DNA from: Candidatus Marinacidobacterales bacterium
GTDB lineage: Bacteria; Acidobacteriota; Vicinamibacteria; Marinacidobacterales; DATDRI01
Direction: 5' to 3'
DNA length: 64,000 nt
Assembly: GCA_965226495.1 (NCBI GenBank)
Contig: OZ245365.1
Coordinates: forward strand, 5,600,001 to 5,664,000
The translations under genes and the position numbers were made by a program. The notes under the pieces are model-generated. The model ran no database searches. It had not been told where the DNA came from and saw only the letters and a list, made by a program, of their open reading frames with translations. This document shows, in pieces, positions 32,846 through 45,331 of the stretch. Positions within the stretch are counted from its first letter, which is position 1; every line of letters starts with the position of its first letter.

Positions 32846-33724
32846 TTACTGATTTTCGAGGACCGGCACCCCCAGGACGACGGACACCACGATAGAAAGG
32901 GCGGTGAGCGCAATGCAGGCGAGCGCCAGCAGCAGATGGTCTCCCCTCTCCGGCAACAAGGGATCCAAGAAGCGAGCGGTGTAATATCCACCGGCGAAGC
33001 CGCCCGCGTGGGCGTAGTTGTCGACACCGGGGAAGACCAAGCCGAAGATAAAGAGGATCACCGCGTAGCTTACTGCCTGTCGGCCCAGGAGACTGCTCCC
33101 TCCGCGCTTTCCAGAGTAAACGAGCGCCCCGAGCAAACCGAAAATAGGAGCCGAAGCCCCTACCGTGAAAATAGCGCCTCGGAGAAGGGGGAAAGGGAAA
33201 GCTCCGAGGTAGTATCCGGCGAGGCTGCTGAGTAGGAAGCCGGTGATCGAGGACACGGTGTAGATAATGACCAGGCGGGCCGGGCCGTAGGCCTCCGCAG
33301 TCGCGGGAGCCAGTTGGCGCACCCACATCATATTGAAGCCGATGTGAATCAAACCGCCGTGGAGCCAAGCCGCGCTCAGGACGGTCCACCACCTTCCATA
33401 CTCGAAGACCGGGGCCGCCCCGCTTGCTCCGAAGAGAAAGAGCGCGCGGACGCCCGGCGACAAAAACGAGAGTGCGCCTCCCGTCCTAATGCTCGAGGGA
33501 TCGATCAGAAGTGTCGCAACGTAGAGCCCCACGCATCCCCACAGCACCATTTGCGTGAAACCGAGATCCATGCCGAGTTTCCGCAGCATCGGGGCATAGC
33601 CCCAGAGGCCCGGGTTCCATCGGCCGCAGTTCATGCAGCGTTCGTCGTTCACACCCACCAAATTGCCGCAGCCGGCGCAGAGGACCGATCCGGTCTTTTG
33701 TGGATTCCACATAGTTGCTATCAT
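32846..33724 (-). CDS. Rhomboid intramembrane serine protease with N-terminal Zn-ribbon
   Basis: CAGC...CMNC; WWTVLSAAWLHGGLIHIGFNM; catalytic GASA and DNYAHAGG. Confidence 0.92.
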   Translation of the reverse strand: MIATMWNPQKTGSVLCAGCGNLVGVNDERCMNCGRWNPGLWGYAPMLRKLGMDLGFTQMVLWGCVGLYVATLLIDPSSIRTGGALSFLSPGVRALFLFGASGAAPVFEYGRWWTVLSAAWLHGGLIHIGFNMMWVRQLAPATAEAYGPARLVIIYTVSSITGFLLSSLAGYYLGAFPFPLLRGAIFTVGASAPIFGLLGALVYSGKRGGSSLLGRQAVSYAVILFIFGLVFPGVDNYAHAGGFAGGYYTARFLDPLLPERGDHLLLALACIALTALSIVVSVVLGVPVLENQ

Positions 33725-33783
33725 TATGTTCTAAGACAGCTGATATGTCCGACCGTGTTGCGGTAGTCGTTGCAGCCGGTGTG
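33688..33783 (+). repeat. Left copy of ~96-bp direct repeat (rhomboid 5' end, divergent promoter, mutT 5' stub)
   Basis: Manual alignment with 41665-41761 shows 8 mismatches and 1 gap. The mutT stub reads ATG TCC GAC CGT GTT GCG GTA GTC GTT GCA GCC GGT GTG ATC TGA. Confidence 0.92.
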
Positions 33784-33835
33784 ATCTGAGGAATCTGGCA
33801 GGCCTTCATCCCGTCAGCCTACCGGTTGGACGTTC

Positions 33836-34723
33836 TTATTGGGCGTCTTGGGCTACCCACTGCGGATCCGCACTGTCCGCCCCCGGATTTTCTCCGCGGA
33901 AACCGTTGTTGCCGGCCGCCGAGAGATCGGAGACAACCTGTCCCGAGCCTTCGTCGAAGCTCCAATAGCCCACCAGAGCGGGGGAGTCTCGATCCACGCC
34001 GGAGTCGAAAACCTCGTTGATCTCACCGTCAGTTAGAACGACGTTCCACATGGCGGGCTCGTCTATGAGCCCGGGGAAAAACCAAACCGGAGGTTCCCGC
34101 CCGCCGGGGGGCGGTCCGATCGTGCCGAAGGTGCACCCGACCGACAACACCTGGAAGTTGTTCGAGGAAGGGACGCCGGTGCTCTGGCAGCTCGCCTCCC
34201 TGTTTCCATCGACGTAGACGCTCAAGTCGCCGAAACCACTGCGTGTGACGGCGACGTGGTGCCAAACATCGTCGGCCACGAAGAGGTTGCCGCTGCTGCA
34301 CGAGCCTGACGGCGTGCAGCTGTTCGAGGGATAGCAGTAGTTGTTTTCCCTCGAGTCCTCGAGCATGACCTCGAGGGTTCCGTCCGGCAGCACGTAGAGC
34401 TGCCAACTCAGATTGAAGGAGTTGTCATCCTCACCCCGGGCGATGACCGAGGCCCGACGCTGCGGCGGTGTGAGCTTGATCCAGGCACCGATGGTGAAGA
34501 TTTCCGTGGGGAACGACGGGTCGTATGGCACCGTGACGCGATCGTCGGATCCGTCGAACCTGAGCGCACTCGCGCCTCCCGGCACCTCCGGAGCGTTCTC
34601 GACAGCGTCCGGCTCCTCGACGACGTCGGGACCAGTCGGCCCGGCGTCATCCGCGCCGTCGCCACATGAGAGGAGCGCAATCGCGGCAAGTCCAATGAAA
34701 ACTACGAGACAACGTCTGTGCAA
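33836..34723 (-). CDS. LamG/concanavalin-like domain lipoprotein
   Basis: Lipobox LLSC; ALRFDGSDDRV, FTIGAWIK, WHHVAVT, FPGLIDE, LVGYWSFDEGSG. Confidence 0.85.
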   Translation of the reverse strand: MHRRCLVVFIGLAAIALLSCGDGADDAGPTGPDVVEEPDAVENAPEVPGGASALRFDGSDDRVTVPYDPSFPTEIFTIGAWIKLTPPQRRASVIARGEDDNSFNLSWQLYVLPDGTLEVMLEDSRENNYCYPSNSCTPSGSCSSGNLFVADDVWHHVAVTRSGFGDLSVYVDGNREASCQSTGVPSSNNFQVLSVGCTFGTIGPPPGGREPPVWFFPGLIDEPAMWNVVLTDGEINEVFDSGVDRDSPALVGYWSFDEGSGQVVSDLSAAGNNGFRGENPGADSADPQWVAQDAQ

Positions 34724-35093
34724 CGTTCACCTCCACGGCTTCTCCCCCTCGGGCCGCTGACTCCTAAATCTCTCGATGCGCTCCCTCCGGGAATGCAGGC
34801 CCTCCGGGTTGAGCCAATCGTTTTACGAAGCATGTTCCACACTCCTCTCCGCGTTCTCGCTGGTACATTGTAGCCAGCTAGAACCCTCTGGCTCATCAAA
34901 TTTTCGTAAAGGTTCTGTTAAGAATGTAAAGGAGGGCGAACTTTTCGATGTGCGGGCAACTGCGCCTTCTCGCAGAGCTCTTCGTCACCGACGAGCGCCC
35001 CGAGGATTTCCTTGATTCCTCTCTAGGCCAACCGTACCTTCGCGGTGAAGTTCACCAAGCTTTTCCACTCGTGTGGGACGTCCGCTCGGCTTC

Positions 35094-36722
35094 CTATTGA
35101 ATCGTGACCGTCACGGGAGAGGAGCATGACTGGTTACCGGCCGCGTCAGTGGCGCAGATCCGGTACGGCAGCGTCTCAGGCATTGGCGTTTCGATCCCTG
35201 CTCGCCAGAGGAATTCTCCGTACCAAATCATCGGCACCTCACGGGTCTGTCGGTCTGCCGTCCAGCGCATGACAACGGATTGCCAATCGTGAGGCTTGGT
35301 AGGGCTCGTGTTGTCGTGGACTCGGGCGCGAATAGTCAGCGTCGTACCAACCTCGGAAGTCTTTACCTCTTCTACGAGTGATATGACCGGCGGGGCCGTG
35401 TCGACCGGGATATTCGTGCCCAAATACACTTTGTCTTCGAAGGCACCTTGGTCGATCTTCGAGATCGTCTCGCCCTGCGCCTGAACGACGTCGAGTCTGT
35501 GGTCCCCATTCAGATCGGCAACGGCGTGGTGAAGCGTTCCATCGGTGGGCCTACCGCCGTAAAAGACATCCGGCGCCTGCCGCAAATGGCCTAAGCCGTC
35601 GTTGACGAGAAGCCGGTCGGGACCGGCCAGGGATGCTATGAGCACATCGGCGTCCCCGTCGGAATCATAGTCGAGATAGACCGCCACGTTGTCGTCGTAG
35701 CCTGGGTTCTCCTCATCCGGCCAGTGCGTCGGAGAGGCGTCGACGAATCCCCCGCTCCCGTCGTTGAGAAAGATGTGCTGGCGGCGAGTGTACGAATCGA
35801 TCCCTTCGAGGGCTTCTCCGTCGTTGATGGTTATCAGGTCAAGAAACTCGTCCCCGTTGAGATCGATCGCCTCGAAGTCGTAATTGTTCTTGTACTGCGG
35901 GAGCTTTTCTCTCGAAACGTCGATGAATCTCCCGTTCCCGTCATTTTCGAAAAGGAGGCTACTCGCGTTGAAACGGGCGGTCACGAGCACATCGAGGTCG
36001 TAGTCGTTATCGACGTCCACCAGCTCACACTCCCAGGCGAGCTTTGCCAAGACGGAGGGCATTCGGTCTTCGGTCGCATCCTTGAAATGGCCGCTTCCGT
36101 CGTTGAGCCAGAGCATCGACCGACCGCCATCGTTCTTTGCGGGGTCTCCCAGCCCCCAATCGGACAACAACAAGTCCAGGTCACCGTCGCCGTCCACATC
36201 TCCGAGCTCGAGGTCCGAAACACTCGCTTTCAACTGGGGGAGGTGAGTGGCAGTGACATCGACAAAGTCGCCCCTGCCGTCTCCGAGATAGAGCCTGCTC
36301 TGATCCTGGAACACCGTTCCAACGATGATGTCAGGATGGCCGTCCGAGTTGATGTCTCGTGCCTTGATGACGCGCGAAAGCTATCGCTGGTCGCCATAGA
36401 TCGATTCGCTTGCATCGGTGAACGGGTTGCCCGGCCCTCGGTTTAGATAGACACGGCTCATCGTCGGGTCCAGGGGTTCATTGTTTGTGCCGCCCATAGC
36501 GAAAAGCAGATCGGGTAAACGGTCCCCGTTGAGGTCGGCGATATCGACCCGGTTCGTCCAGTACTCGGTGGCACCGATGGTTTCCGCGGTGGCATCTTTC
36601 CAGAGGTTGGCAGGGATCTCCTCGATGCTTTGCCGCGGCGGTTCGGCAGCACACCCGACCATTACGCTCAGCATCAAGAAAACACCACGTGGAAGCACGT
36701 ATGTTTGAGTTCTTTTTCTCAT
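35094..36722 (-). pseudogene. FG-GAP/VCBS repeat lipoprotein interrupted by an in-frame TAG at 36381-36383
   Basis: Lipobox VMVGC; repeated DLNGD/DVDGDGD/DVDNDYD motifs. The two ORF-track pieces are in the same frame: GDQR*LSRVIKARDINSDGHPD. Confidence 0.8.
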
Positions 36723-36862
36723 TGTAGAGGCCGGGAGCGAAGATCTGGTACCGCTATTTCACCCGAAGTAGCTGACCGCCCCATCCTTTCGAGTTGTTTA
36801 CTTTTGGTTACTTGTCTGAACAGGACTGCTGGCCGTCATTCAGCGTGGTTGCCCATCCGAAC

Positions 36863-36996
36863 CTAGTCAGACGGAGCCTCCACAAACTGTTGGGCGTCAA
36901 AACGTGTGGCTGCCAGCATCAAGCTAGCCAGACGCGCACGCCAGAAACCTGTTGGGCGTCAAAATATGTGGGTGCCAAACTCAAGTTGGCCAGACG
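36863..36996 (+). repeat. ~62-bp imperfect tandem repeat, about 2.2 copies
   Basis: ctgttgggcgtcaaaa occurs at 36887 and 36949. Flanking ctag(t/c)cagacg and gtg..tgcca...tcaag are also repeated. Confidence 0.8.
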
Positions 36997-37031
36997 CCGG
37001 TCCGGACCGAGTAGATCTCAGAGGCCTATCT

Positions 37032-37108
37032 GTTCACGCCCACCAAGTTGCCGCAGCCGGCGCAGAGGACCGAGCCGGTTTCTTGTGATTCTCAGATACT
37101 TCACCATT
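37032..37108 (-). repeat. Third, internal partial copy of the rhomboid 5' end
   Basis: Encodes ..TGSVLCAGCGNLVGVN then R-stop; matches 33646-33724 with third-position changes. Confidence 0.9.
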
Positions 37109-37237
37109 CGCCGGGCGTTCCGCCGACGGTGTATTTCGCCGCCGATTGCGTCAGCAGAAGCAGCCCCCACGGGAACGTGGGGCCAACCCTCGACCCTACC
37201 AGGCAGTCATCATCTTGCGGACGGTTTCGTAGACCGA

Positions 37238-37519
37238 TTAGCCCTTCGCCATCGCGTTCTTGATGAATCCGATGATGGCGAGGAGGACTGCCCCACCGAC
37301 ACCGGACCCGGCGACGTTACCAATGATGTTGCCGATATCCATTGCGGAACCGCCACCACCCAGAATACCGAGGGCGCCGAGTATCTGTCCTCCCAGACCG
37401 CCGCCCACGATCCCGACAACGGAGTTCAACAACGTGCCTAAGCTAAGATTCTTCATCAGGGCACCGGCGACGTTACCACCGACTGCACCGCCGATAAGGT
37501 TCATTATCAAGCTTTCCAT
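37238..37519 (-). CDS. Small Gly-rich membrane protein (GlsB/YeaQ-like)
   Basis: RBS GGAGG; LIGGAVGGNVAG...GIVGGGLGG...GSGVGGAVLLAIIG. Confidence 0.8.
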   Translation of the reverse strand: MESLIMNLIGGAVGGNVAGALMKNLSLGTLLNSVVGIVGGGLGGQILGALGILGGGGSAMDIGNIIGNVAGSGVGGAVLLAIIGFIKNAMAKG

Positions 37520-37719
37520 TTACATTCCTCCCATATGAATGTGCTAATACGTCATGTTGCTGTCACAAGGTCAACGGTCCCCCCAGCGTGGAGCTCACGG
37601 GCGCTAACGAGGGCGTTGAGCTCCCGTCTCCATTACAACCTGGCTGGGGTCGAGCGCTGCAGCGTGACCGGTCCGGACCGGACCGGCTCTCGCCTGGTTG
37701 ACATGCGACTTCGAGTACA

Positions 37720-39273
37720 ATGGCGGCGGCGTTGGCACTGATGTTGAAATCCGGTGGAGGGCGGGGAGTCGCTGCGGAGCGGGGCCCCTTGGCACCGAGG
37801 AACACAATCCTACTCGGGCTCGTGGCGATGAGCTCGGCCTGCGGGTCGTTTCACACCGAGGACCCGGCCCCCGAGTTGACGCCCGGAGTCCAGCGCGAGG
37901 AGCAGCTCTCCTCGCTGCGCTACCTCTACTATCGGAACACTCCGGCACCACCGCCGCCAACCGAGACCGAGCTAGCCGGGATCGAGGGCGTTCTCGAGTC
38001 CGCTCCGGAGGTCGAGAGAGGCTACCTCGAGGAGTACTACAAAAACGCCCGCGATCTGCTGGTCTTTGCAACGCGCGACAGCGACGGCGATGGAGTACAC
38101 GACTACCGGGTGAGCGACTACTACGGCAAGTTCCTCGAGGGCGATATCGATGTCGACGGTGACGGGGTGCGCAACGTCTACGACTCGGGCCCCTACGATC
38201 CCGTCGTAGGTGGGGCCGATACGGACGCCGACGGCGTGCCCGACGAGCCTGGCAGCTTCCAGGATGCGAACGACAACGGCATTCCCGACCACCTCGACTG
38301 GCGGCTCCATGGCAAGGGGGCTGAAGCTGCCTCGCAGCAGGAAGCGCTGTTTCGCGATCACGAGATCATCCTGGTCGAGCGCTCGGCCGAGTTCACCGAG
38401 GATCTGGCGCGCTCGGTCTACGACGCCGTCACTCGGATCTTTCGGGGTCCGTTCACGACCCGGGCCGTGCTGCCAACGCTGCGGACCATCGCCACGGAGG
38501 AAACGTGTCTCCTGACGCCCGAGGTCGACGACAGGACCAACGCCATGGCGATCGTGCAGACGCAGTCGCTGGTGATCTATCGCATTGGCATCGACTACCC
38601 GTCGTTCGTCCAACTGGGCCTGGTGGCCCACGAGCTGGGCCACAACTACCAGCTGTCGCTCGACTTCGACCAGCACGATCTCGCCGCCGAGAACGAGCGC
38701 GTCTACTTTCCGGCGCCGAGGTTTCATGCCCTGGTCGAGCCGTTCGGCTGGGAGGCCCAGTCGATCGTGTTCGACCCCGCGACCGACGGCTACCAGTCGT
38801 TCACTCCGGCGTACTACGAGGTGACGCCCTTCTACACTTGGCTCAGCGACACCACCGAGGAATGGGCGGTCTGGCTAGAGCGCAAGTACCGCCGGGAAGG
38901 AGACGACTACCTCGAGGATCCGGAGGTGCTCGAGCACCATATCGTCGGTGACTACTCCTTGAGCAACCCGTGGGAGTGGTACAGCGACAACATGATCGCG
39001 TACACCTTTCTCGAGATCGAGCGGCGGCTTCGCGAGATGCTGGACGGCGACGAGCTGGATGCTGCCCTCCAGGCGATGGACGCCGCCAGCCGCGAGGCGT
39101 GGCCGGGCTTCCGCTACCAGAATCTCGATCGCGACGCGGTCGAGCAGCACTTCCGCAAGACCTTTCCGCTTCGCGAGCAGGACCTGGGTCACTTCGTGGA
39201 GGAGTACGTGAAGCCTCTCGCCATAGCCAACGAGTCCGGGTCCGCCCAGACGGTAGTCTCGCAACGAGAATGA
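37720..39273 (+). CDS. Lipoprotein with DxDxDG Ca-binding repeats and HExxH zinc-metallopeptidase domain (true start probably downstream, near 37789)
   Basis: LLGLVAMSSAC; DSDGDG, DVDGDG, DTDADG, DANDNG; AHELGH and downstream NPWEWYSD. Confidence 0.7.
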   Translation: MAAALALMLKSGGGRGVAAERGPLAPRNTILLGLVAMSSACGSFHTEDPAPELTPGVQREEQLSSLRYLYYRNTPAPPPPTETELAGIEGVLESAPEVERGYLEEYYKNARDLLVFATRDSDGDGVHDYRVSDYYGKFLEGDIDVDGDGVRNVYDSGPYDPVVGGADTDADGVPDEPGSFQDANDNGIPDHLDWRLHGKGAEAASQQEALFRDHEIILVERSAEFTEDLARSVYDAVTRIFRGPFTTRAVLPTLRTIATEETCLLTPEVDDRTNAMAIVQTQSLVIYRIGIDYPSFVQLGLVAHELGHNYQLSLDFDQHDLAAENERVYFPAPRFHALVEPFGWEAQSIVFDPATDGYQSFTPAYYEVTPFYTWLSDTTEEWAVWLERKYRREGDDYLEDPEVLEHHIVGDYSLSNPWEWYSDNMIAYTFLEIERRLREMLDGDELDAALQAMDAASREAWPGFRYQNLDRDAVEQHFRKTFPLREQDLGHFVEEYVKPLAIANESGSAQTVVSQRE

Positions 39274-39281
39274 TCAAATAT

Positions 39282-39298
39282 CGTCTCCCGCGGAGACG
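39282..39298. terminator. Hairpin between convergent genes
   Basis: cgtctcc-cgc-ggagacg. Confidence 0.4.
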
Positions 39299-39339
39299 GC
39301 TCATAGGTGCCACCCGACCGCAAGGCCACCGGTGAGGAG

Positions 39340-40527
39340 TCAGCCAGCTAATCGACGATAGACCTCAGAAAACTTCGGTAGTGCCCGTTCGATCATCTCA
39401 TCGCTTGCTGTCACCGAGGCACGCAAGTGCCCGGGCATTTGCACCACGTGGCCGGGCAAACAAAAGACACCTTCCTTTGCGAGTTCTTCCGCGAATTTCG
39501 CATCATCGTCGATGGGCGTCTTCGGCGTGACGTAGAACGCGCCTTCCGGCAGGTGAACTTGATAGCCACTGTTGCGCAATCCCGCGACGAAACGGTCGCG
39601 TCGCGCCTGCAGCTCGTCAATATCCAATGACAATTCTTCAAGGCGACCCAACGCATGCTGCATCAACGCGCTGCTCATGGCCCAACCGCATAGGATCTGA
39701 CTCGACGCCATCAAGTTTCGCAAAGCCTGCCGCTCTTCAATCTCGAGCGACAAGGCCAAGTAACCAAGACGTTGCCCAGGAGTAAGAAGTGTTTTGCCAT
39801 AGGTGTAGATCATGATCGAGTCGCGGTAGAACGTTGTCGGACTAACATACTGCCTGCCGTCGTACACGATAGTCCGATATGCCTCATCAGAAAGGAGGTA
39901 AATGGTCCGGCCAATGCGACGACTCTCGACTTCGAGTATCGCTGCAAGTTTCTCGAGCGTCTCCCGTGTATACACCTTACCGGTAGGGTTGTTCGGCGAA
40001 TTCACTATGATGAAGCGAGTCCGTTCGGTGATCGCGGCGGCGATTGCGTCCAGATCTAGATCGAAGGTATCAGCCTGCACGCGCACCCGGACGGGCTTGC
40101 CACCCCCGTTCAAGATCATGCCTTCGTAGAAAAACCATGGCGGACTGTTGTAAATCACTTCATCACCGGCGCCGATCAGTGCGTTCATCGTGACCATCAA
40201 CGCCCCAGTAGCGCCGTTGGTTAGAAATATGTCTTCCGGCGCGTACGACTGGCCGGTCAATCGCAACAGCGAATCGCGGACTAGCTCGCGCGAAGACGGC
40301 TCACTCATCTTGTAGGCATACCAAGCCGGGTTCTGTGGTGCAGTCGCCTCGCGCAGCGCCGTCACGAACCGTGGTAGCGGCATGGTTTGTGGGTTACCCA
40401 GCGCAAAGTCGCAGTCTGTCGGTTTCGGGTTGGACATCCAGGACTCGTACTTTGCCAAAAAATCAAAAATGGGCACCATGCAGTGGTGTGCGCGACGCAC
40501 ACGCTCTGGTGCAGACGTTGGAAGCAT
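39340..40527 (-). CDS. Aminotransferase class I/II (PLP)
   Basis: NSPNNPTG, LSDEAYR, TYGKTLLTPGQRLGY. Confidence 0.92.
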   Translation of the reverse strand: MLPTSAPERVRRAHHCMVPIFDFLAKYESWMSNPKPTDCDFALGNPQTMPLPRFVTALREATAPQNPAWYAYKMSEPSSRELVRDSLLRLTGQSYAPEDIFLTNGATGALMVTMNALIGAGDEVIYNSPPWFFYEGMILNGGGKPVRVRVQADTFDLDLDAIAAAITERTRFIIVNSPNNPTGKVYTRETLEKLAAILEVESRRIGRTIYLLSDEAYRTIVYDGRQYVSPTTFYRDSIMIYTYGKTLLTPGQRLGYLALSLEIEERQALRNLMASSQILCGWAMSSALMQHALGRLEELSLDIDELQARRDRFVAGLRNSGYQVHLPEGAFYVTPKTPIDDDAKFAEELAKEGVFCLPGHVVQMPGHLRASVTASDEMIERALPKFSEVYRRLAG

Positions 40528-40708
40528 GTCTCCTCCCCTCGTTAATGCAGATACGCACGGCGAAACGCTTGCCGTAGCCCCCGCGCTCGAGTCGAGCCCG
40601 TTCGTCTATGTTACCGGTTGATCCGCGACGTGTAATTGACCTTTATTGCCATTTTCTTATTAGATCGTCCCAATATTCGTCGTTTTCGAATAAACCGATG
40701 AGGCTCCA

Positions 40709-41658
40709 ATGGACTTCTTGAGTGATGTGTTGACTCGGCTTCGCTTGAGTAGTGACGTCTACTTCACGACAGATTTCGGCGGGGCCTGGGGCGTCCATCT
40801 CCCTCCCGACCAGCAAGCCATTCGATTTCACTTGGTGCTCCACGGCCAGTGTTGGGTCACGGTCGACGGCGGCCACGTACCGACGAGTGTACGGGAGGGC
40901 GAATTCGTCTTGATCCCGCACGGCGCGGGGCAGCAATTGTTGAGTGCCCCTCACGCGCCGTCGCTATCACTTGAGAAGATTCTTGGCCGCGATAACCCAA
41001 CGTCGGATGGCGTCCTGCGTCACCGAGCGATGGGCAGTGGTGCCGACTGCCGATTGGTCTGTGGCTTTTGCCACTTCGACCATCACGTCAGCCATCCGCT
41101 GTTCCATGGATTGCCATCCATGATCGTTCTGATTAACCAAACGATTGGCCAACTACCTTGGTTGGCGGACGCTATCCGTTTGGCGACGATCGAGGCGAAC
41201 CGAAATGGCCAAGGTGTGCGCGCCATCATTAGTCGATTGATCGAAATCCTGTTCATGCAGGCCATTCGAACGCAAACCCATTTGCCTGCCAGTCACGGCA
41301 ATCCGTTCATGCGTGCCATTGTCGACCCCAGCTGGCGCCGGCGCTCAAGGCGATCCACGAGGAGTTGGATCGCGATTGGACATTGACTTCGCTCGCCAAG
41401 ACGGCCCGTATGTCGCGCACCCAATTTGCGCGACGGTTCAAAGACACGCTGGACCAAACGCCCATTCAGTATCTTATTGACTGGCGATTCGCGACAGCTC
41501 GGCAATTGCTGCGGGACACCGATCTTCCCATAGCGGACATAGCGTTTCGTGCGGGGTATCGATCCGTACCGTCGTTCACGCACCGCTTCAAAAAACGTTT
41601 CGACGTCACCCCGGCCGCGTATCGTCGGGCTGGCCAGGTCGGGTCCCCCGCCGGTTGA
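40709..41658 (+). CDS. AraC-family regulator (Cupin_6 + HTH), split by a -1 frameshift in a C-run at 41326-41329
   Basis: MDFLSDVL, FHLVLHGQCW, LVCG. Adding one C restores DPQLAPALKAIHEELDRDWTLTSLA...MSRTQFARRFK...GYRSVPSFTHRFKK. Confidence 0.85.
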
Positions 41659-41664
41659 GCACCT

Positions 41665-41761
41665 ATCCGGTCCTTTTTTCGATTCCACATAGTTGCTATC
41701 ATTACGTTCTAAGATAGCTGCTATGTCCGAACGTGTTGCGGTCGTCGTTGCGGCCGGTGTG
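41665..41761 (+). repeat. Right copy of the direct repeat (rhomboid 5' stub, promoter, intact mutT start)
   Basis: The minus strand reads MIATMWNRKK, matching rhomboid MIATMWNPQK. Confidence 0.92.
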
Positions 41762-42124
41762 GTGTCGGTCGACGGAAAGATTCTGGTCGCTCGACGCAAA
41801 GCCGGTACCCACTTGGAACGCCGGTGGGAGTTCCCGGGCGGTAAGCTCGAGCCCGGAGAAGCTCCCCAGGAGTGTTTGATCCGCGAATTTCGCGAAGAGC
41901 TCGACGTCGGGATCGAAGTCGGACAAGTCCTAGAAGTGATCTTTCATCGCTATCCAGAACGCAATGTGCTTTTGCTGATGTACAGCTGCAAGCTCGTCGA
42001 GGGAGAGCCCCGTGCTATCGGCTGCGAAAAACTGCAGTGGCTAGAGAAGAAAGAGCTCGAGCGCCTGGACTGGGTTCCCGCCGATCGCGCCTTCGTGCGC
42101 CGTCTCGCCTCGGAGAGCGGATAG
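41723..42124 (+). CDS. mutT: Nudix hydrolase, MutT/NudG-like
   Basis: ILVARR...WEFPGGKLEPGEAPQECLIREFREELDV (Nudix box), PAD near the C-terminus. Confidence 0.8.
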   Translation: MSERVAVVVAAGVVSVDGKILVARRKAGTHLERRWEFPGGKLEPGEAPQECLIREFREELDVGIEVGQVLEVIFHRYPERNVLLLMYSCKLVEGEPRAIGCEKLQWLEKKELERLDWVPADRAFVRRLASESG

Positions 42125-42129
42125 CCTTC

Positions 42130-45100
42130 TCAGGTCGTCGGGACCATCACCGGCGGGACCGCTTCCTCTTCGACGAGGGCGTTGAAATCTGCGAGCTCCG
42201 TCGTGATGACTTTCTCGAGAGCGCTCAAATGCTTCGCCAGCTCCGCCTTCAGCTCCTCGTAGCGAGCATAAGAACCATCGGTCGGCTTGGCCTCGGAGCC
42301 GATCACAATGCCGTACAAGTAAAGTATTTGATTGTCTAACATCGGCGGGAAGTTGAGTGGATCCTGATTGCTTTCCAACTTAGTTTGATACAGTTTTTCC
42401 TCGATGGTGGTAAGCGCTTCGCTCACGCTTTGTGCCGTTTCTTGGAATTTGTCCCCGCGACCGGCCTTGCTCAATCGCTCCGCCAAGTCTTCGACTTGCT
42501 GGCGAATCTCCCGTATCCGCGTGACCGCCTCATGGGTTTCGACCACCAAGGCTCGGGTCTTCATCGCCAAGTCGAATTGCGCTTGGAAATCCTCTTGTGT
42601 CGCGGCGAGCCGGGGGGTCTTTCTTCACCTCGAAGGCTTTAGTGTCCGTCCACTCGCCGACCTTCATCCTTACTTTATAGTGTCCGGGTACGGCTCGCGG
42701 TCCCTGCTTCGTACCCCAAATGATGGCCCCTTCGGTCACTTCCGCGTCCGGATAGCGTAGGTCCCAGACAAACCGGTTCATTCCCGCATCGGTTGAAACC
42801 TTTTCGTCTCGGCCCTGATTGAAGAAAGTCTCCTGCTCCGCCTCTTTTTCCTCGGAGCTTCCGAATGAGTGTACGACCTCGTCGTTGGCGTCGAGGATCT
42901 CAAGTGTGACCTCGTCCTCCGATGAATTTGCGAGATAGTAGTAGATGACCGCCCCGTTGGGAGGGTTCTCACCGATCCCGGAGCGATCCCGGGTGCGCCC
43001 GGCGCGCCCCATTCGGTACGCATCCCGAAGAGAAAACAAAACTGTTTCGGCGTCCGCCATTTCATTCGTCAACTGCTGCAGCGTCGTGAGATCGTCGAGG
43101 ATCCAAAACGAGCGACCTTGGGTCGCAACGACCAAGTCCCCGTCCTTCACTTGCATGTCGGTGATAGGAGTGACGGGCAAGTCCCCGTCCTTCACTTGCA
43201 TGTCGGTGATAGGAGTGACGGGCAAGTTGAGCTGCAGGGACTGCCAAGTTTGGCCGTCATTGAAGGAAACGTACATGCCGAACTCGGTGCCGGCGTAAAG
43301 CAGACCTGGACGGCCCGGGTCCTCCCTCACGACGCGAACGAAGTGGTTCGACGGGATCCCGTTTCGCCCATTAGTGAGAAGCTCCCAGGTGGCGCCGAAA
43401 TCGTTGGTCCTGAAGATGTACGGACGAAAGTCGTCCATCTTGTATCGCGTTACTGCCACGAAGGCGCGCCCCGGGGAAAACGCGGAGAGCTCTAGCATGT
43501 TGACCTGACTCCACTCTGGCATCGCCTCGGGTGTGATGTCCGTCCAGTTCGTCCCACCATCTCGCGAAAGCTGCACCAGACCGTCGTCGGTACCAACCCA
43601 AAGGAGGCCCGCTTGATGGGAGGATTCCTCTAGAGCAAAAACGGTCCCGTAGACCTCGACGCCGGTGTTGTCCCACGTTAGGGGGCCTCCGGAGTAGTCT
43701 TGCTTCTCCTTGTCGTTGCGCGTCAAATCCGGACTGATAACCTCCCAACTCTGTCCCTCGTTGGTCGACTTATGAACCACGTTCGAAGCGTGAAAGAGCA
43801 CCTTGGGATCGTGCGATGAGATTCGGATCGGAGCATTCCACTGAAAGCGATACTTCATATCGCGCGGAGCCTGCCCCAACTGGAGCTGTGGATAGTCAAG
43901 GATGTTGCGTCGATAGCCGGTCCGGTGGTCGTAACGCGTGATCGTCCCACCATAGCTTCCCGCGTAGACGATGTTGGTATCCCCCGGGTCCACCGCGATG
44001 TGGCCGCTCTCACCTCCGCCAACCGGGTACCAGTTTTGGATGGTGATACCTCCGGAAGCGGTGCGGCTAGCAATCGAGACGGTCGAGTTGTCCTGCTGGG
44101 CACCGTAAACGCGGTAGGGAAACTGATCGTCGACAATGACTCGATAAAACTCGGCGGTGGGCTGATTGGTTTGTGTGGACCACGTCTTTCCGCCGTTGAA
44201 CGAAACGTTGGCTCCTCCATCGTTGCTGTTGATGAGAATCTTCGGATTCTTAGGATTGAGCCACAGATCGTGGTTGTCCCCATGGGGCACCGGTATCGAT
44301 TCGTACGTTTTGCCGCTGTCCACGGATTTGTAGAAAGCGGTGTTGAGTGCGTAGACGGTATTTTCGTCTACCGGATCCGCATAGACGTGCGTGTAGTACC
44401 AGGCTCGTTGTCGATGCTTGCGTTCCTTGTTAACGAGTCGAAACGTCTCCCCGCCATCGTCGGAGCGAAACATACCGCCATCCTCCGCTTCGATGAGAGT
44501 CCAAACGCGTTCCGGATTGGCCGGCGATACCGCCACTGCAATACGGCCAGTCATCTCTTGGGGCAGTCCCTTCGTCAGCTCAGTCCAGTTATCTCCACCG
44601 TCGGTGCTCTTGTAGAGACCGCCGTCCTCTCCTCCGCTGATGAGTGCCCATGGCTTTCGGACCACGCGCCAGATCGCAGCATAAAGAATCCTGGGATTCC
44701 GCGCATCCATCGCCAGATCGACGGCTCCTGCCTGCTCGCTCACGAAGAGAACCCTTTCCCAACTCATTCCGCCGTCCCGCGACCGAAAGACGCCGCGTTC
44801 TTCGTTGGGTCCAAAGATGTGGCCGAGCGCCGCGACGTAAACAAGGTCCGGGTCCTTGGGATGCACTCGAATACGACCGATCTGTCCCGCCTCGCGAAGA
44901 CCGATGTGGGTCCAGGTCTTGCCTGCATCGGTGGAGCGATAGACGCCATCACCCGGCGAGATGTTCCCTCGCGGGCATGCGGAGCCCGTGCCGACGTAAA
45001 CGACGTTGGGATCCGAGTCGGCAACTGCGATCGCCCCGATGGAAGCGCTCCCGAAGAAGGTGTCGGAGACATTGGTCCACGTCTCGCCGGCGTCGGTGGT

Positions 45101-45331
45101 CTTCCAGACACCCCCACCGGTCGAGCCCATATAGTACGTCTGGGGATCGGACGGGACACCGGCCACCGCCGTCACGCGCCCGCCCCGAAAGGGTCCGATG
45201 TTTCGATACTCGAGCGCACTGAAGAGCGCCGGGTCATAGGTCGGCGGCACGTCGGCTTCTAGTCCAGCCGCCCAGACGATCGTTGAGGAAAAAAGGGCTA
45301 ACGACACCCCAATCGAGATCCATCTCTTCAT
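42130..45331 (-). CDS. Secreted BNR/VPS10 (sortilin-like) glycosyl hydrolase, with +1 frameshift at G6 42612-42617 and a 45-bp tandem duplication
   Basis: YRNIGPFRGGR, repeated SxDGGxxW Asp boxes, HGDNHDLW, YRFQWNAP. Removing one base restores KKDPRLAATQEDFQAQFDLAMK. Confidence 0.88.
43136..43225. repeat. Exact 45-bp tandem duplication (LPVTPITDMQVKDGD x2)
   Basis: 43136-43180 is identical to 43181-43225. Confidence 0.95.

What the first reader, a model, noticed from the sequence alone, without database searches (positions are those of the whole stretch)
33646..41761. Integrase-free nested cassette hotspot at the divergent rhomboid/mutT junction, with target copies that differ mostly at synonymous sites
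Seen: the layout is [intact rhomboid] <-P-> [13-codon mutT stub + stop] | cargo 1 | [rhomboid 5' fragment 37032-37108] | cargo 2 | [rhomboid stub] <-P-> [intact mutT]. The outer repeats (33688-33783 and 41665-41761) differ by 8 mismatches and 1 gap. In the mutT part all three changes are at third positions (GAC/GAA, GTA/GTC, GCA/GCG). In the TGSVLCAGCGNLVGVN block of the internal copy all changes are synonymous (GGA/GGC, AAT/AAC, GGT/GGC). Inference: these are not decayed target-site duplications but orthologous gene ends from related lineages that arrived with the cargo. That implies repeated capture of DNA at one site, with both flanking genes and their promoter restored each time, and no recombinase encoded here. 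It could be a trans-mobilised att-site system or homology-anchored cassette stacking.
Basis: partly seen in the sequence, partly recalled or inferred. Interest (0 to 1): 0.78.

Follow-up and report, generated by a model that had tools for sequence, protein, structure and literature searches.

The report
Integrase-free insertion hotspot with gene-end scars
Between two back-to-back housekeeping genes of an uncultured marine Acidobacteriota bacterium, foreign genes have been inserted more than once, each time leaving a spare copy of the neighbouring gene starts; it is a real, well-supported example of a known but mechanistically unsolved recombination scar, not a new kind of mobile element.

Summary
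The rhomboid/mutT junction occurs three times in the 6.3-Mb genome, all at this locus. Contigs from two different studies bridge the inner and right junctions.

The site is a true hotspot. Three other genera and one near relative have rhomboid directly next to mutT. A seawater contig about 98% identical to the window joins 33774 to 41753, which is an empty site. The two same-genus genomes carry other cargo: a CusCBA-like efflux operon, or cargo 1 plus one extra gene.

No recombinase was found in four cargo alleles, and the repeat boundaries differ between alleles. The same architecture occurs at three other junctions with no shared motif. In G001 the two copies belong to different allele classes (8:0:0 informative sites), so one copy arrived from another lineage.

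My best reading (0.55) is "insertion with long target duplication". This is a homology-anchored, recombinase-free insertion, spread afterwards by homologous recombination. An att-site system is unlikely (0.12).

The synonymous-site argument is thin, and the stubs in relatives are decaying.

This is a new member of a known kind. This scan has noted similar scars on other DNA, including one in this same genome.

The parts
32846..33724 (-). Intact rhomboid-family protease gene with an N-terminal CxxC zinc-ribbon; left flank of the hotspot.
   Evidence: ORF. Pfam PF01694 1.4e-22. Orthologues lie next to mutT in other genera.
33647..33783 (.). Left junction copy: rhomboid codons 1-26, the 20-nt spacer (33725-33744) and mutT stub codons 1-13. 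The stub ORF ends at the TGA at 33787-33789.
   Evidence: The right-hand boundary at 33783 is shared with G002.
33723..33751 (-). Promoter-like site for rhomboid. The -35 hexamer lies inside mutT codons 1-3 and the -10 overlaps the first ATG of rhomboid.
   Evidence: Consensus scan: 1 site found against 0.2 expected. This is a prediction only.
33784..37031 (.). Cargo 1. LamG/concanavalin-like secreted protein (33836-34723, -). FG-GAP repeat protein split in two (35094-36314 and 36381-36722, -; intact at 544 aa in G002). Three tandem units of about 61 nt (36823-36997).
   Evidence: Pfam. Repeat family D1. Present in G002 at 92-95% identity, and the LamG part in L053 and L080 at about 93-94%. 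The LamG tract is 97-100% identical to G002.
37032..37109 (.). Internal copy of the rhomboid 5' end, codons 26 to about 1. The zinc-ribbon block is 45/48 identical to the functional gene; the first 10 codons are strongly diverged.
37110..41656 (.). Cargo 2. 93-aa glycine-rich small protein (37238-37519, -). 517-aa protein with an HExxH motif and no family match (37720-39273, +). Class I/II aminotransferase (39340-40527, -). AraC-type regulator split by a frameshift (40709-41386 and 41365-41658, +).
   Evidence: Pfam, PHROGs and NCBIfam. No match in G001. In G002 only the small gene is present, and it lies downstream of mutT.
41657..41761 (.). Right junction copy: rhomboid stub (about 41663-41702, frame broken by one extra base), spacer (41703-41722), and the start of the intact mutT.
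41723..42124 (+). Intact Nudix (MutT-like) hydrolase gene; right flank of the hotspot.
   Evidence: Pfam NUDIX 6.3e-20. TIGR00586 96.4 bits, just under its cut-off. Orthologues found in 40 of 41 relatives searched.

Best explanation
This is a recombinase-free insertion hotspot of the type published as 'insertion with long target duplication'.

The two core genes start 20 nt apart and face away from each other, so each gene's promoter must lie inside the other gene's first codons.

Inferred mechanism: DNA from related lineages entered by a homology-anchored event. One possibility is a single crossover of a circular or ends-in fragment. The other is repair of a break by copying from a diverged donor fragment, with the far end then joined illegitimately (homology-facilitated illegitimate recombination). 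Either event adds cargo and at the same time supplies a fresh copy of the interrupted gene start. The old copy is left behind as a stub.

Shown:
- the nested layout in the window;
- empty and differently filled alleles in relatives;
- the absence of recombinase genes from the cargo;
- different repeat boundaries in different alleles;
- the foreign (non-sister) origin of one copy in G001;
- a recent exchange of cargo between species.

Inferred: the exact primary mechanism; that later spread uses ordinary homologous recombination in the flanks or stubs; and that a second event into the stub module produced the nesting.
For: 1. Hotspot.
- Empty sites in G003, G004 and G005, which are other genera.
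- Empty site in L050, a near relative (mutT 91% aa).
- A seawater contig in run X2 joins 33774 to 41753, skipping 7978 nt (depth 13.6, 6 mismatches in 284 nt).
- G001 carries a CusC/CusB/CusA-like operon at the site.
- G002 carries cargo 1 plus a 364-aa gene.
- L053 carries LamG plus a PilT-family ATPase.
- A contig in run X1 joins 36798 to 41706, i.e. cargo 1 only.

2. No recombinase in the cargo of G000, G001, G002 or L053. None of the genome's 7 tyrosine-recombinase matches lies in the window. The nearest is about 116 kb away and has its own 57-58-bp repeats at 98-100% identity.

3. Repeat boundaries differ. In left-copy coordinates:
- the G000 right copy starts near 33680;
- the G002 right copy starts near 33713;
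- the copy beside G001's rhomboid ends near 33753;
- mutT stubs have 3, 13, about 44 or about 56 codons.

4. The same architecture is found elsewhere.
- G002 has a 153-bp duplication of the mutT 3' end and the sortilin-like gene's 3' end around 2.26 kb of cargo.
- G000 locus L092: 267-bp copies, 82.5% identical, around a 1.18-kb insert; empty in G001 and G002.
- G000 locus L095: lpxB and rsgA, divergently transcribed; a 128-bp rsgA 5' stub and an MBL-fold gene; empty in G001, G002 and G003.
- The four duplicated segments share no motif: 6 shared 10-mers against 6.1 in shuffles.

5. Copies within one genome are not sisters: G001 8:0:0 and 6:0:1; L092 10:3:0.

6. The LamG tract is 97-100% identical between G000 and G002 against a background of 85-90%. 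The tract begins at the cargo boundary.

7. The promoter-like -35 lies inside the mutT stub, and the shortest stub (G001) still keeps it.

8. Permissive only: Ku and ComEC are encoded.

9. The class is published, with repeats of 46-423 bp, no other mobile elements and no settled mechanism (PMC2853133, passages read).
Against: 1. At least two or three events at one 20-nt spacer within one genus is a strong concentration. That is what a site-specific system would give.

2. The rhomboid stub begins at the same position (equivalent to 33647) in the G000 internal copy and in the copy beside G001's mutT. This could mean a fixed boundary or common descent.

3. All duplicated segments at this site overlap in about 8-12 nt around the rhomboid start codon, so a common crossover core is not excluded.

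4. The two copies of the G002 mutT/sortilin duplication are sisters (7:1:0). That fits an in-place duplication or a very close donor.

5. The window's own copies are too short to show foreign origin.

6. Only 2 of the 8 other repeat loci I compared with relatives were clean cases.

7. No transfer route has been demonstrated, and I could not read the sequence of the X2 empty-site contig.
Confidence: 0.55

Rival explanations
1. Decayed or trans-mobilised site-specific elements (CIME-like). Elements with an attP resembling the junction were integrated by a tyrosine or serine recombinase encoded elsewhere or since lost. Successive integrations into attR then stacked the cargo.
For: - Nested direct repeats with an internal copy match the tandem-accretion picture described for CIMEs (PMC5704250, passages read).
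- Events recur at one spot.
- The stub boundary at 33647 is shared by G000 and G001.
- All duplicated segments overlap near the rhomboid start codon.
- An empty allele about 98% identical to the window could be an excision product.
Against: - No recombinase in 4 of 4 cargo alleles.
- Junction copies occur only at this locus in G000, G001 and G002.
- Zero hits for two junction patterns in viral contigs.
- Boundaries vary between alleles.
- The same scar occurs at three unrelated junctions with no shared motif.
- The repeats are 82-92% identical, whereas the integrase-linked repeats in the same genome are 98-100% identical.
- No tRNA or known RNA lies at the site.
Confidence: 0.12
2. In-place duplication. 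A short tandem duplication of the junction, or fill-in of a staggered break, created two identical copies and a harmless joint. Cargo later landed there. The copies then diverged through stub decay and through allelic replacement of the functional genes.
For: - The G002 mutT/sortilin copies are each other's closest relatives (7:1:0, 92% identical).
- Stubs show decay: frameshifts, a lost ATG, second-position changes.
- Published cases mostly have near-identical repeats (PMC2853133 tables).
- For L095, a rough estimate I made from the site counts puts the divergence between copies near the upper limit that neutral decay could produce since the species split.
Against: - The G001 copies belong to different allele classes (8:0:0).
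- The L092 copies group with different species (10:3:0).
- G001's functional rhomboid has the L050-type start, while its stub has the type shared with the outgroup genus.
- The internal copy's divergence follows the constraint profile of a working gene (3/48 in the zinc ribbon, about 10/28 in codons 1-10). Uniform decay would not do this.
Confidence: 0.18
3. Assembly artefact: alleles of co-occurring strains, each with different cargo, were concatenated by the assembler.
For: - The runs hold several alleles of this locus at once (joints in X1 and X2).
- The genome is a metagenome-assembled single contig.
Against: - Contigs from two studies bridge the internal and right junctions with 0-1 mismatches.
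- G002, L053 and L080 independently show the left joint.
Confidence: 0.02

Closest known systems
Insertion with long target duplication (Furuta et al. 2010, PMC2853133, passages read; that paper credits its reference 37, which I recall as Nobusato et al. 2000 and did not see)
   Same: - The insert is under 20 kb.
- It is flanked by direct repeats far longer than transposon duplications (46-423 bp in the paper).
- The repeats align to a single copy in a related genome.
- No other mobile element is present.
- Repeat lengths vary and repeats overlap gene ends.
- The mechanism is unresolved.
   Different: - The cargo here is not restriction-modification genes.
- The duplicated segment spans a bidirectional promoter and both gene starts.
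- The copies are 82-92% identical, against mostly 93-100% in the paper's tables.
- In G001 the copies are demonstrably from different allele classes.
- Events are nested at one site.
Homology-facilitated illegitimate recombination in natural transformation (Acinetobacter, S. pneumoniae, P. stutzeri), as described in PMC5361080 and PMC2884548 (passages read). The original papers were not seen; PMC122325 is not held.
   Same: - One homologous anchor carries adjacent foreign DNA into the chromosome without a dedicated recombinase.
- It explains donor-type sequence on one side of the cargo.
   Different: - I recall the laboratory products as mostly deleting recipient DNA rather than duplicating it.
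- A duplication needs an ends-in, break-repair or circular variant.
- Nothing here shows that transformation takes place.
Displacement arrays of orphan gene ends (Rhs, CDI, and Vibrio cholerae T6SS immunity arrays; PMC5361080, passages read)
   Same: - Successive insertions give the gene a new end and push the old ends back.
- The result is a stack of stubs, with no integrase involved.
   Different: - Those arrays involve toxin 3' ends and immunity genes under diversifying selection.
- Here, housekeeping gene 5' ends and unrelated cargo are involved.
CIMEs and tandem accretion of integrative elements (PMC5704250, passages read)
   Same: - Integrase-less islands are bounded by attL and attR.
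- An internal att copy remains after a second integration.
   Different: - CIMEs derive from ICE/IME families with a known integrase and a fixed att core.
- None was found here, and the boundaries vary.
Hotspots free of mobile genetic elements, and flexible genomic islands between core genes (PMC2617782 and PMC4033161; search listing and abstract start only)
   Same: - Different gene sets sit at one position between conserved core genes.
- They are exchanged by homologous recombination in the flanks.
   Different: - As far as I saw, those descriptions do not involve partial duplicates of the flanking gene ends.

Membership tests
Insertion with long target duplication (criteria of PMC2853133) | The insert is absent from a related genome whose flanks align on both sides. 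| tested here: met
   Empty site in G003, G004, G005 and L050, and an X2 contig that skips 7978 nt.
Insertion with long target duplication (criteria of PMC2853133) | Direct repeats longer than 30 bp flank the insert and align to one copy in the empty genome. | tested here: met
   Copies of about 105 nt (outer pair) and about 70-78 nt (internal). All align to the single junction of L050 and G003.
Insertion with long target duplication (criteria of PMC2853133) | The insert is under 20 kb and contains no mobility genes. | tested here: met
   The insert is 7.9 kb. Pfam, PHROGs and NCBIfam find no integrase or transposase in it.
Insertion with long target duplication (criteria of PMC2853133) | The insert contains restriction and modification genes. 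This was a search criterion of that study, not a mechanistic feature. | tested here: not met
   The cargo is LamG, FG-GAP, an aminotransferase, an AraC-type regulator and unknowns.
Site-specific integrative element or CIME | A cognate integrase is present in the element or in related elements at the same target. | tested here: not met
   0 of 4 cargo alleles have one. No junction copy lies beside any recombinase in G000, G001 or G002.
Site-specific integrative element or CIME | A constant att core and constant repeat boundaries across independent insertions. | tested here: inconclusive
   Boundaries differ (33680, 33713, 33753, 33783). However, all segments overlap in about 8-12 nt near the rhomboid start, and two alleles share the 33647 boundary.
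Site-specific integrative element or CIME | An excised circular form with attP. | not testable with these tools
   Only contigs of 4 runs could be laid, in a single call. No outward-facing joint was listed.
Homology-facilitated illegitimate recombination | Donor-type sequence on the anchored side and resident sequence in the displaced copy. | tested here: met
   In G001 the functional rhomboid start is L050-type and the stub is G000/G003-type, at 8:0:0. L092 gives 10:3:0. The window's own copies are inconclusive.
Homology-facilitated illegitimate recombination | An illegitimate joint at a short microhomology on the far side. | tested here: inconclusive
   The joints were read, but without donor and recipient sequences the microhomology cannot be assigned.
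Homology-facilitated illegitimate recombination | DNA uptake by a naturally competent host. | not testable with these tools
   ComEC and Ku homologues are present. The organism is uncultured.
XerCD/dif-integrating elements (IMEX) | The target is the chromosome's dif site at the replication terminus. | tested here: not met
   Cumulative GC skew runs monotonically through the locus. By eye the spacer lacks the 11-6-11 dif layout, which I recalled from memory.

The most novel reading that the evidence does not exclude
Stub-flanked islands may be self-propagating 'homology cassettes'. Once formed, recombination between the two stubs would release a circle, or an ends-in fragment, that carries a copy of the junction. 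That copy could re-insert into the empty junction of any related lineage. Each move would restore both genes and their promoters and add a nested layer. If so, long target duplication would be a general, integrase-independent mobility mode for ordinary genes in these Acidobacteriota, not just a scar.
Probability: 0.25. Interest if true: 0.7.

Novelty: new member of a known kind. Interest (0 to 1): 0.42.

Why it matters
How 'insertion with long target duplication' happens is still open. The 2010 survey could only guess at double-strand breaks made by restriction enzymes.

This locus helps in four ways:
- The scar forms with cargo that has nothing to do with restriction enzymes.
- It recurs at a pair of core genes whose promoters overlap.
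- In at least one genome the two repeat copies come from different lineages. That points to a homology-anchored entry of foreign DNA rather than a staggered cut.
- Occupied, nested and empty alleles coexist in public marine data sets from several studies, so the steps could be reconstructed from natural populations.

It also shows how accessory genes, such as a metal-efflux operon and secreted adhesin-like proteins, enter genomes that show few classical mobile elements at these sites.

Tried and rejected
- **Junction on a phage or plasmid.** Two junction patterns gave 0 hits in viral contigs. I did not search the plasmid or phage BLAST collections.
- **Known RNA or tRNA at the site.** None found.
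- **dif/Xer target.** Rejected on GC skew and on the layout of the spacer.
- **Cargo as a repeated element.** No cargo segment has a second copy in the genome.
- **Common motif across the four duplicated segments.** None above shuffles.
- **Genome-wide generality.** A self-comparison gave 323 direct pairs, filtered to 136 and then to 37 unique pairs. The main locus was dropped by this filter because it has three copies. I picked 8 of the 37 by eye, choosing pairs where one copy sits at a gene end, and compared them with G001-G003.
  - L092 and L095 were clean.
  - L091 is rich in insertion sequences.
  - L093 and L098 are complex.
  - L094 and L097 have both copies in G002 too.
  - L096 hits a multi-copy family.
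- **A conserved motif of about 18 nt left of the rhomboid stub in several alleles.** I saw this by eye and in table 5c. It was not tested statistically, so I do not use it.
- **Split-stub reading of the internal and right copies.** The idea was one stub cut in two by cargo 2. I rejected it because the internal copy extends to the start codon.
- **mutT promoter.** The scan found none in the right copy.
- **Literature on the organism.** A search for 'Marinacidobacterales' found 0 papers.
- **Run coverage.** Only 4 of the 23 listed runs were laid, so parts without cover are not used as evidence.


Full report
**What is there**

The window lies at 5,600,001-5,664,000 of a single-contig 6.34-Mb genome. 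Titles of its same-genus relatives name them marine Acidobacteriota ('Candidatus Marinacidobacterales' MAGs).

- A rhomboid-family gene (32846-33724, minus strand) and a Nudix/MutT-like gene (41723-42124, plus strand) are the two core genes.
- The rhomboid start, a 20-nt spacer and the first 13 mutT codons (33647-33783) recur as a right copy (41657-41761, 90% identical).
- The rhomboid part recurs again as an internal copy (37032 to about 37109, 87%).
- These three are the only copies in the genome.
- Cargo 1 (33784-37031) encodes a LamG-like protein and a split FG-GAP protein.
- Cargo 2 (37110-41656) encodes a small glycine-rich protein, a 517-aa HExxH protein with no family match, an aminotransferase and a frameshifted AraC-type regulator.
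The exceptions: GAC/GAA is Asp/Glu, and the first ten codons of the internal copy are heavily changed.

**Is the assembly real?**

Of the 23 public runs listed, 20 hold part of the stretch. I laid 4 of them.

- X15 has zero-mismatch contigs over all three junctions. It may be the source sample.
- X17, from another study, bridges the internal and right junctions with one mismatch each.
- The left joint is confirmed independently in G002 and in metagenome contigs L053 and L080.

A chimeric assembly is therefore very unlikely.

**Comparative picture**

In other genera of the family, rhomboid and mutT are direct divergent neighbours. This holds for G003, G004 and G005, with gaps of about 20-85 nt, and for contigs L051 and L052.

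Within the genus, every genome differs:

- G001 has a CusC/CusB/CusA-like efflux operon of 6.4 kb between its two junction copies.
- G002 has cargo 1 plus a 364-aa gene and no cargo 2.
- L053 has a mutT stub of about 56 codons (reading frame broken after codon 44), followed by LamG and a PilT-family ATPase.
- L080 has a 44-codon stub plus an extra rhomboid fragment (aa 28-59) before LamG.
- L050, a near relative (mutT 91% aa), is empty.

Among the laid runs:

- A seawater contig in X2 (depth 13.6) joins 33774 to 41753. It is an empty site about 98% identical to the window.
- A contig in X1 joins 36798 to 41706, which is a G002-like allele.
- Low-depth X2 contigs suggest still other arrangements.

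**Site-specific or not?**

- None of the four cargo alleles encodes a recombinase.
- The genome's 7 tyrosine-recombinase matches all lie outside the window.
- Junction copies occur only at this locus in G000, G001 and G002. In the family search, 4 of 8 genomes gave a match.
- Two junction patterns found nothing in viral contigs.
- No tRNA or Rfam family lies at the site.
- Repeat boundaries differ between alleles.
- The window's 13-codon stub appears to be a deletion derivative of the longer stub in L053 and L080, because all three share the same cargo-proximal sequence.

The same scar type also occurs at unrelated junctions:

- In G002, a 153-bp duplication of the mutT 3' end and the sortilin-like gene's 3' end surrounds 2.26 kb.
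- At G000 5,466,321-5,468,030, 267-bp copies (82.5% identical) surround a 1.18-kb insert that is absent from G001 and G002.
- At G000 4,205,288-4,206,854, a divergent lpxB/rsgA pair holds an rsgA 5' stub and an MBL-fold gene. The insert is absent from G001, G002 and G003.

The four duplicated segments share no motif beyond chance.

These two extra G000 loci are 2 clean cases out of the 8 I compared. I chose the 8 by eye from 37 candidate pairs.

**Where do the copies come from?**

In G001 the two copies are not sisters.

- The copy attached to the functional rhomboid shares 8 informative sites with the empty L050 allele.
- The stub beside mutT carries the type found in G000 and in the outgroup genus.
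- No site supports the two G001 copies as sisters (8:0:0; 6:0:1 with G003 as reference).

Other loci give mixed results:

- L092 gives 10:3:0 against sisterhood.
- L095 gives a weak 3:1:0 against sisterhood.
- The G002 mutT/sortilin copies are sisters at 7:1:0.
- The window's own copies are too short to decide.

Further points:

- The internal copy is 45/48 identical in the zinc-ribbon block but only 18/28 in codons 1-10. Working orthologues show the same unevenness.
- Stubs decay. L053 is frameshifted, L080 has lost its ATG and has 7-8 second-position changes, and the G002 stub is frameshifted.
- LamG is 97-100% identical between G000 and G002 against a background of 85-90%. The tract starts at the cargo boundary, so cargo has moved between species recently.

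**Mechanism**

With only 20 nt between the two start codons, each promoter must lie in the other gene. A promoter-like site for rhomboid has its -35 in mutT codons 1-3, and even the shortest stub (G001) keeps it. This is a consensus match only.

A plain insertion would cut both genes off from their promoters. Only events that duplicate the junction would survive.

I therefore favour a homology-anchored, recombinase-free insertion. Two routes fit:

- a single crossover of a circular or ends-in fragment that carries a diverged junction copy; or
- repair of a break by copying from a diverged donor, followed by end joining.

Homologous recombination would then spread the island, and a second event into the stub module would give the nesting. 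Ku and ComEC are present, but that is only permissive.

The data do not separate these two routes. They also do not exclude an in-place duplication for some events.

**Known relatives**

- The pattern fits the published class 'insertion with long target duplication'. That class has repeats of 46-423 bp, no other mobile element and an unresolved mechanism (PMC2853133, passages). A note of this scan led me to that paper.
- It also resembles homology-facilitated illegitimate recombination and the orphan-end arrays of Rhs, CDI and T6SS loci (PMC5361080 and PMC2884548, passages).
- It resembles CIME accretion only in outline (PMC5704250).
- A search for the order name found no paper. A search for partial flanking-gene duplications returned nothing specific to this locus (listing only).
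- Supplementary files were not consulted.

**Verdict**

The hotspot is real, the recombinase-free reading is favoured, and the case is a new member of a known kind.

What it adds is cargo unrelated to restriction-modification, a bidirectional-promoter target, non-sister copies in G001, and coexisting empty, single and nested alleles in public data.

It enters only the tallies.

Noticed in passing
G000 2477095-2477185 (L091 11096-11186) and G000 4209619-4209754 (L095 7620-7755); outside the window: A 91-nt and a 136-nt segment lie about 500-550 nt apart. G000 has 13 copies of the 91-nt segment and 14 of the 136-nt one. Both are 99-100% identical in dozens of places in G001, G002 and G003, which includes another genus. 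This looks like a small MITE/IS-like element of about 640 nt that spread very recently, or a shared artefact.
   Followed up: partly
window 35094-36722, 40709-41658, 42130-45331: Three genes are split by frameshifts: FG-GAP (intact at 544 aa in G002), the AraC-type regulator, and the sortilin/BNR-like gene (intact C-terminus in G002). Contigs of other runs carry 1-nt indels at 41325 and 42612 that may restore the frames, so these look like strain-specific lesions.
   Followed up: partly
window 43128-43217: A 45-nt tandem duplication (96% identical) lies inside the sortilin/BNR-like gene. Contigs in X15 and X17 skip exactly 45 nt here, so the copy number varies in natural populations.
   Followed up: no
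window 36823-36997: Three tandem units of about 61 nt (63-83% identical) lie between cargo 1 and the internal rhomboid copy. They are absent from G002 and from the rest of the genome, and have no Rfam match.
   Followed up: partly
window 37182-37588 and L024 17418-17834: The small glycine-rich gene is a roaming cassette. In G000 it lies next to the internal rhomboid stub. In G002 it lies downstream of mutT, next to a mutT 3' stub. An X1 contig joins 43297 to 37202.
   Followed up: partly
G000 5749632-5758450; outside the window: A tyrosine-recombinase gene (5757751-5758281) lies among three 57-58-bp repeats that are 96-100% identical. This is a conventional integrase island, about 116 kb from the hotspot, and a useful contrast to it.
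   Followed up: no
window 33710-33724: Rhomboid has two in-frame ATGs (MIATMW). The predicted -10 overlaps the first, so translation may start at the second on a nearly leaderless mRNA. mutT may also be leaderless: a TAAGAT box lies 7 nt before its ATG. I saw that box by eye, not in a scan.
   Followed up: no
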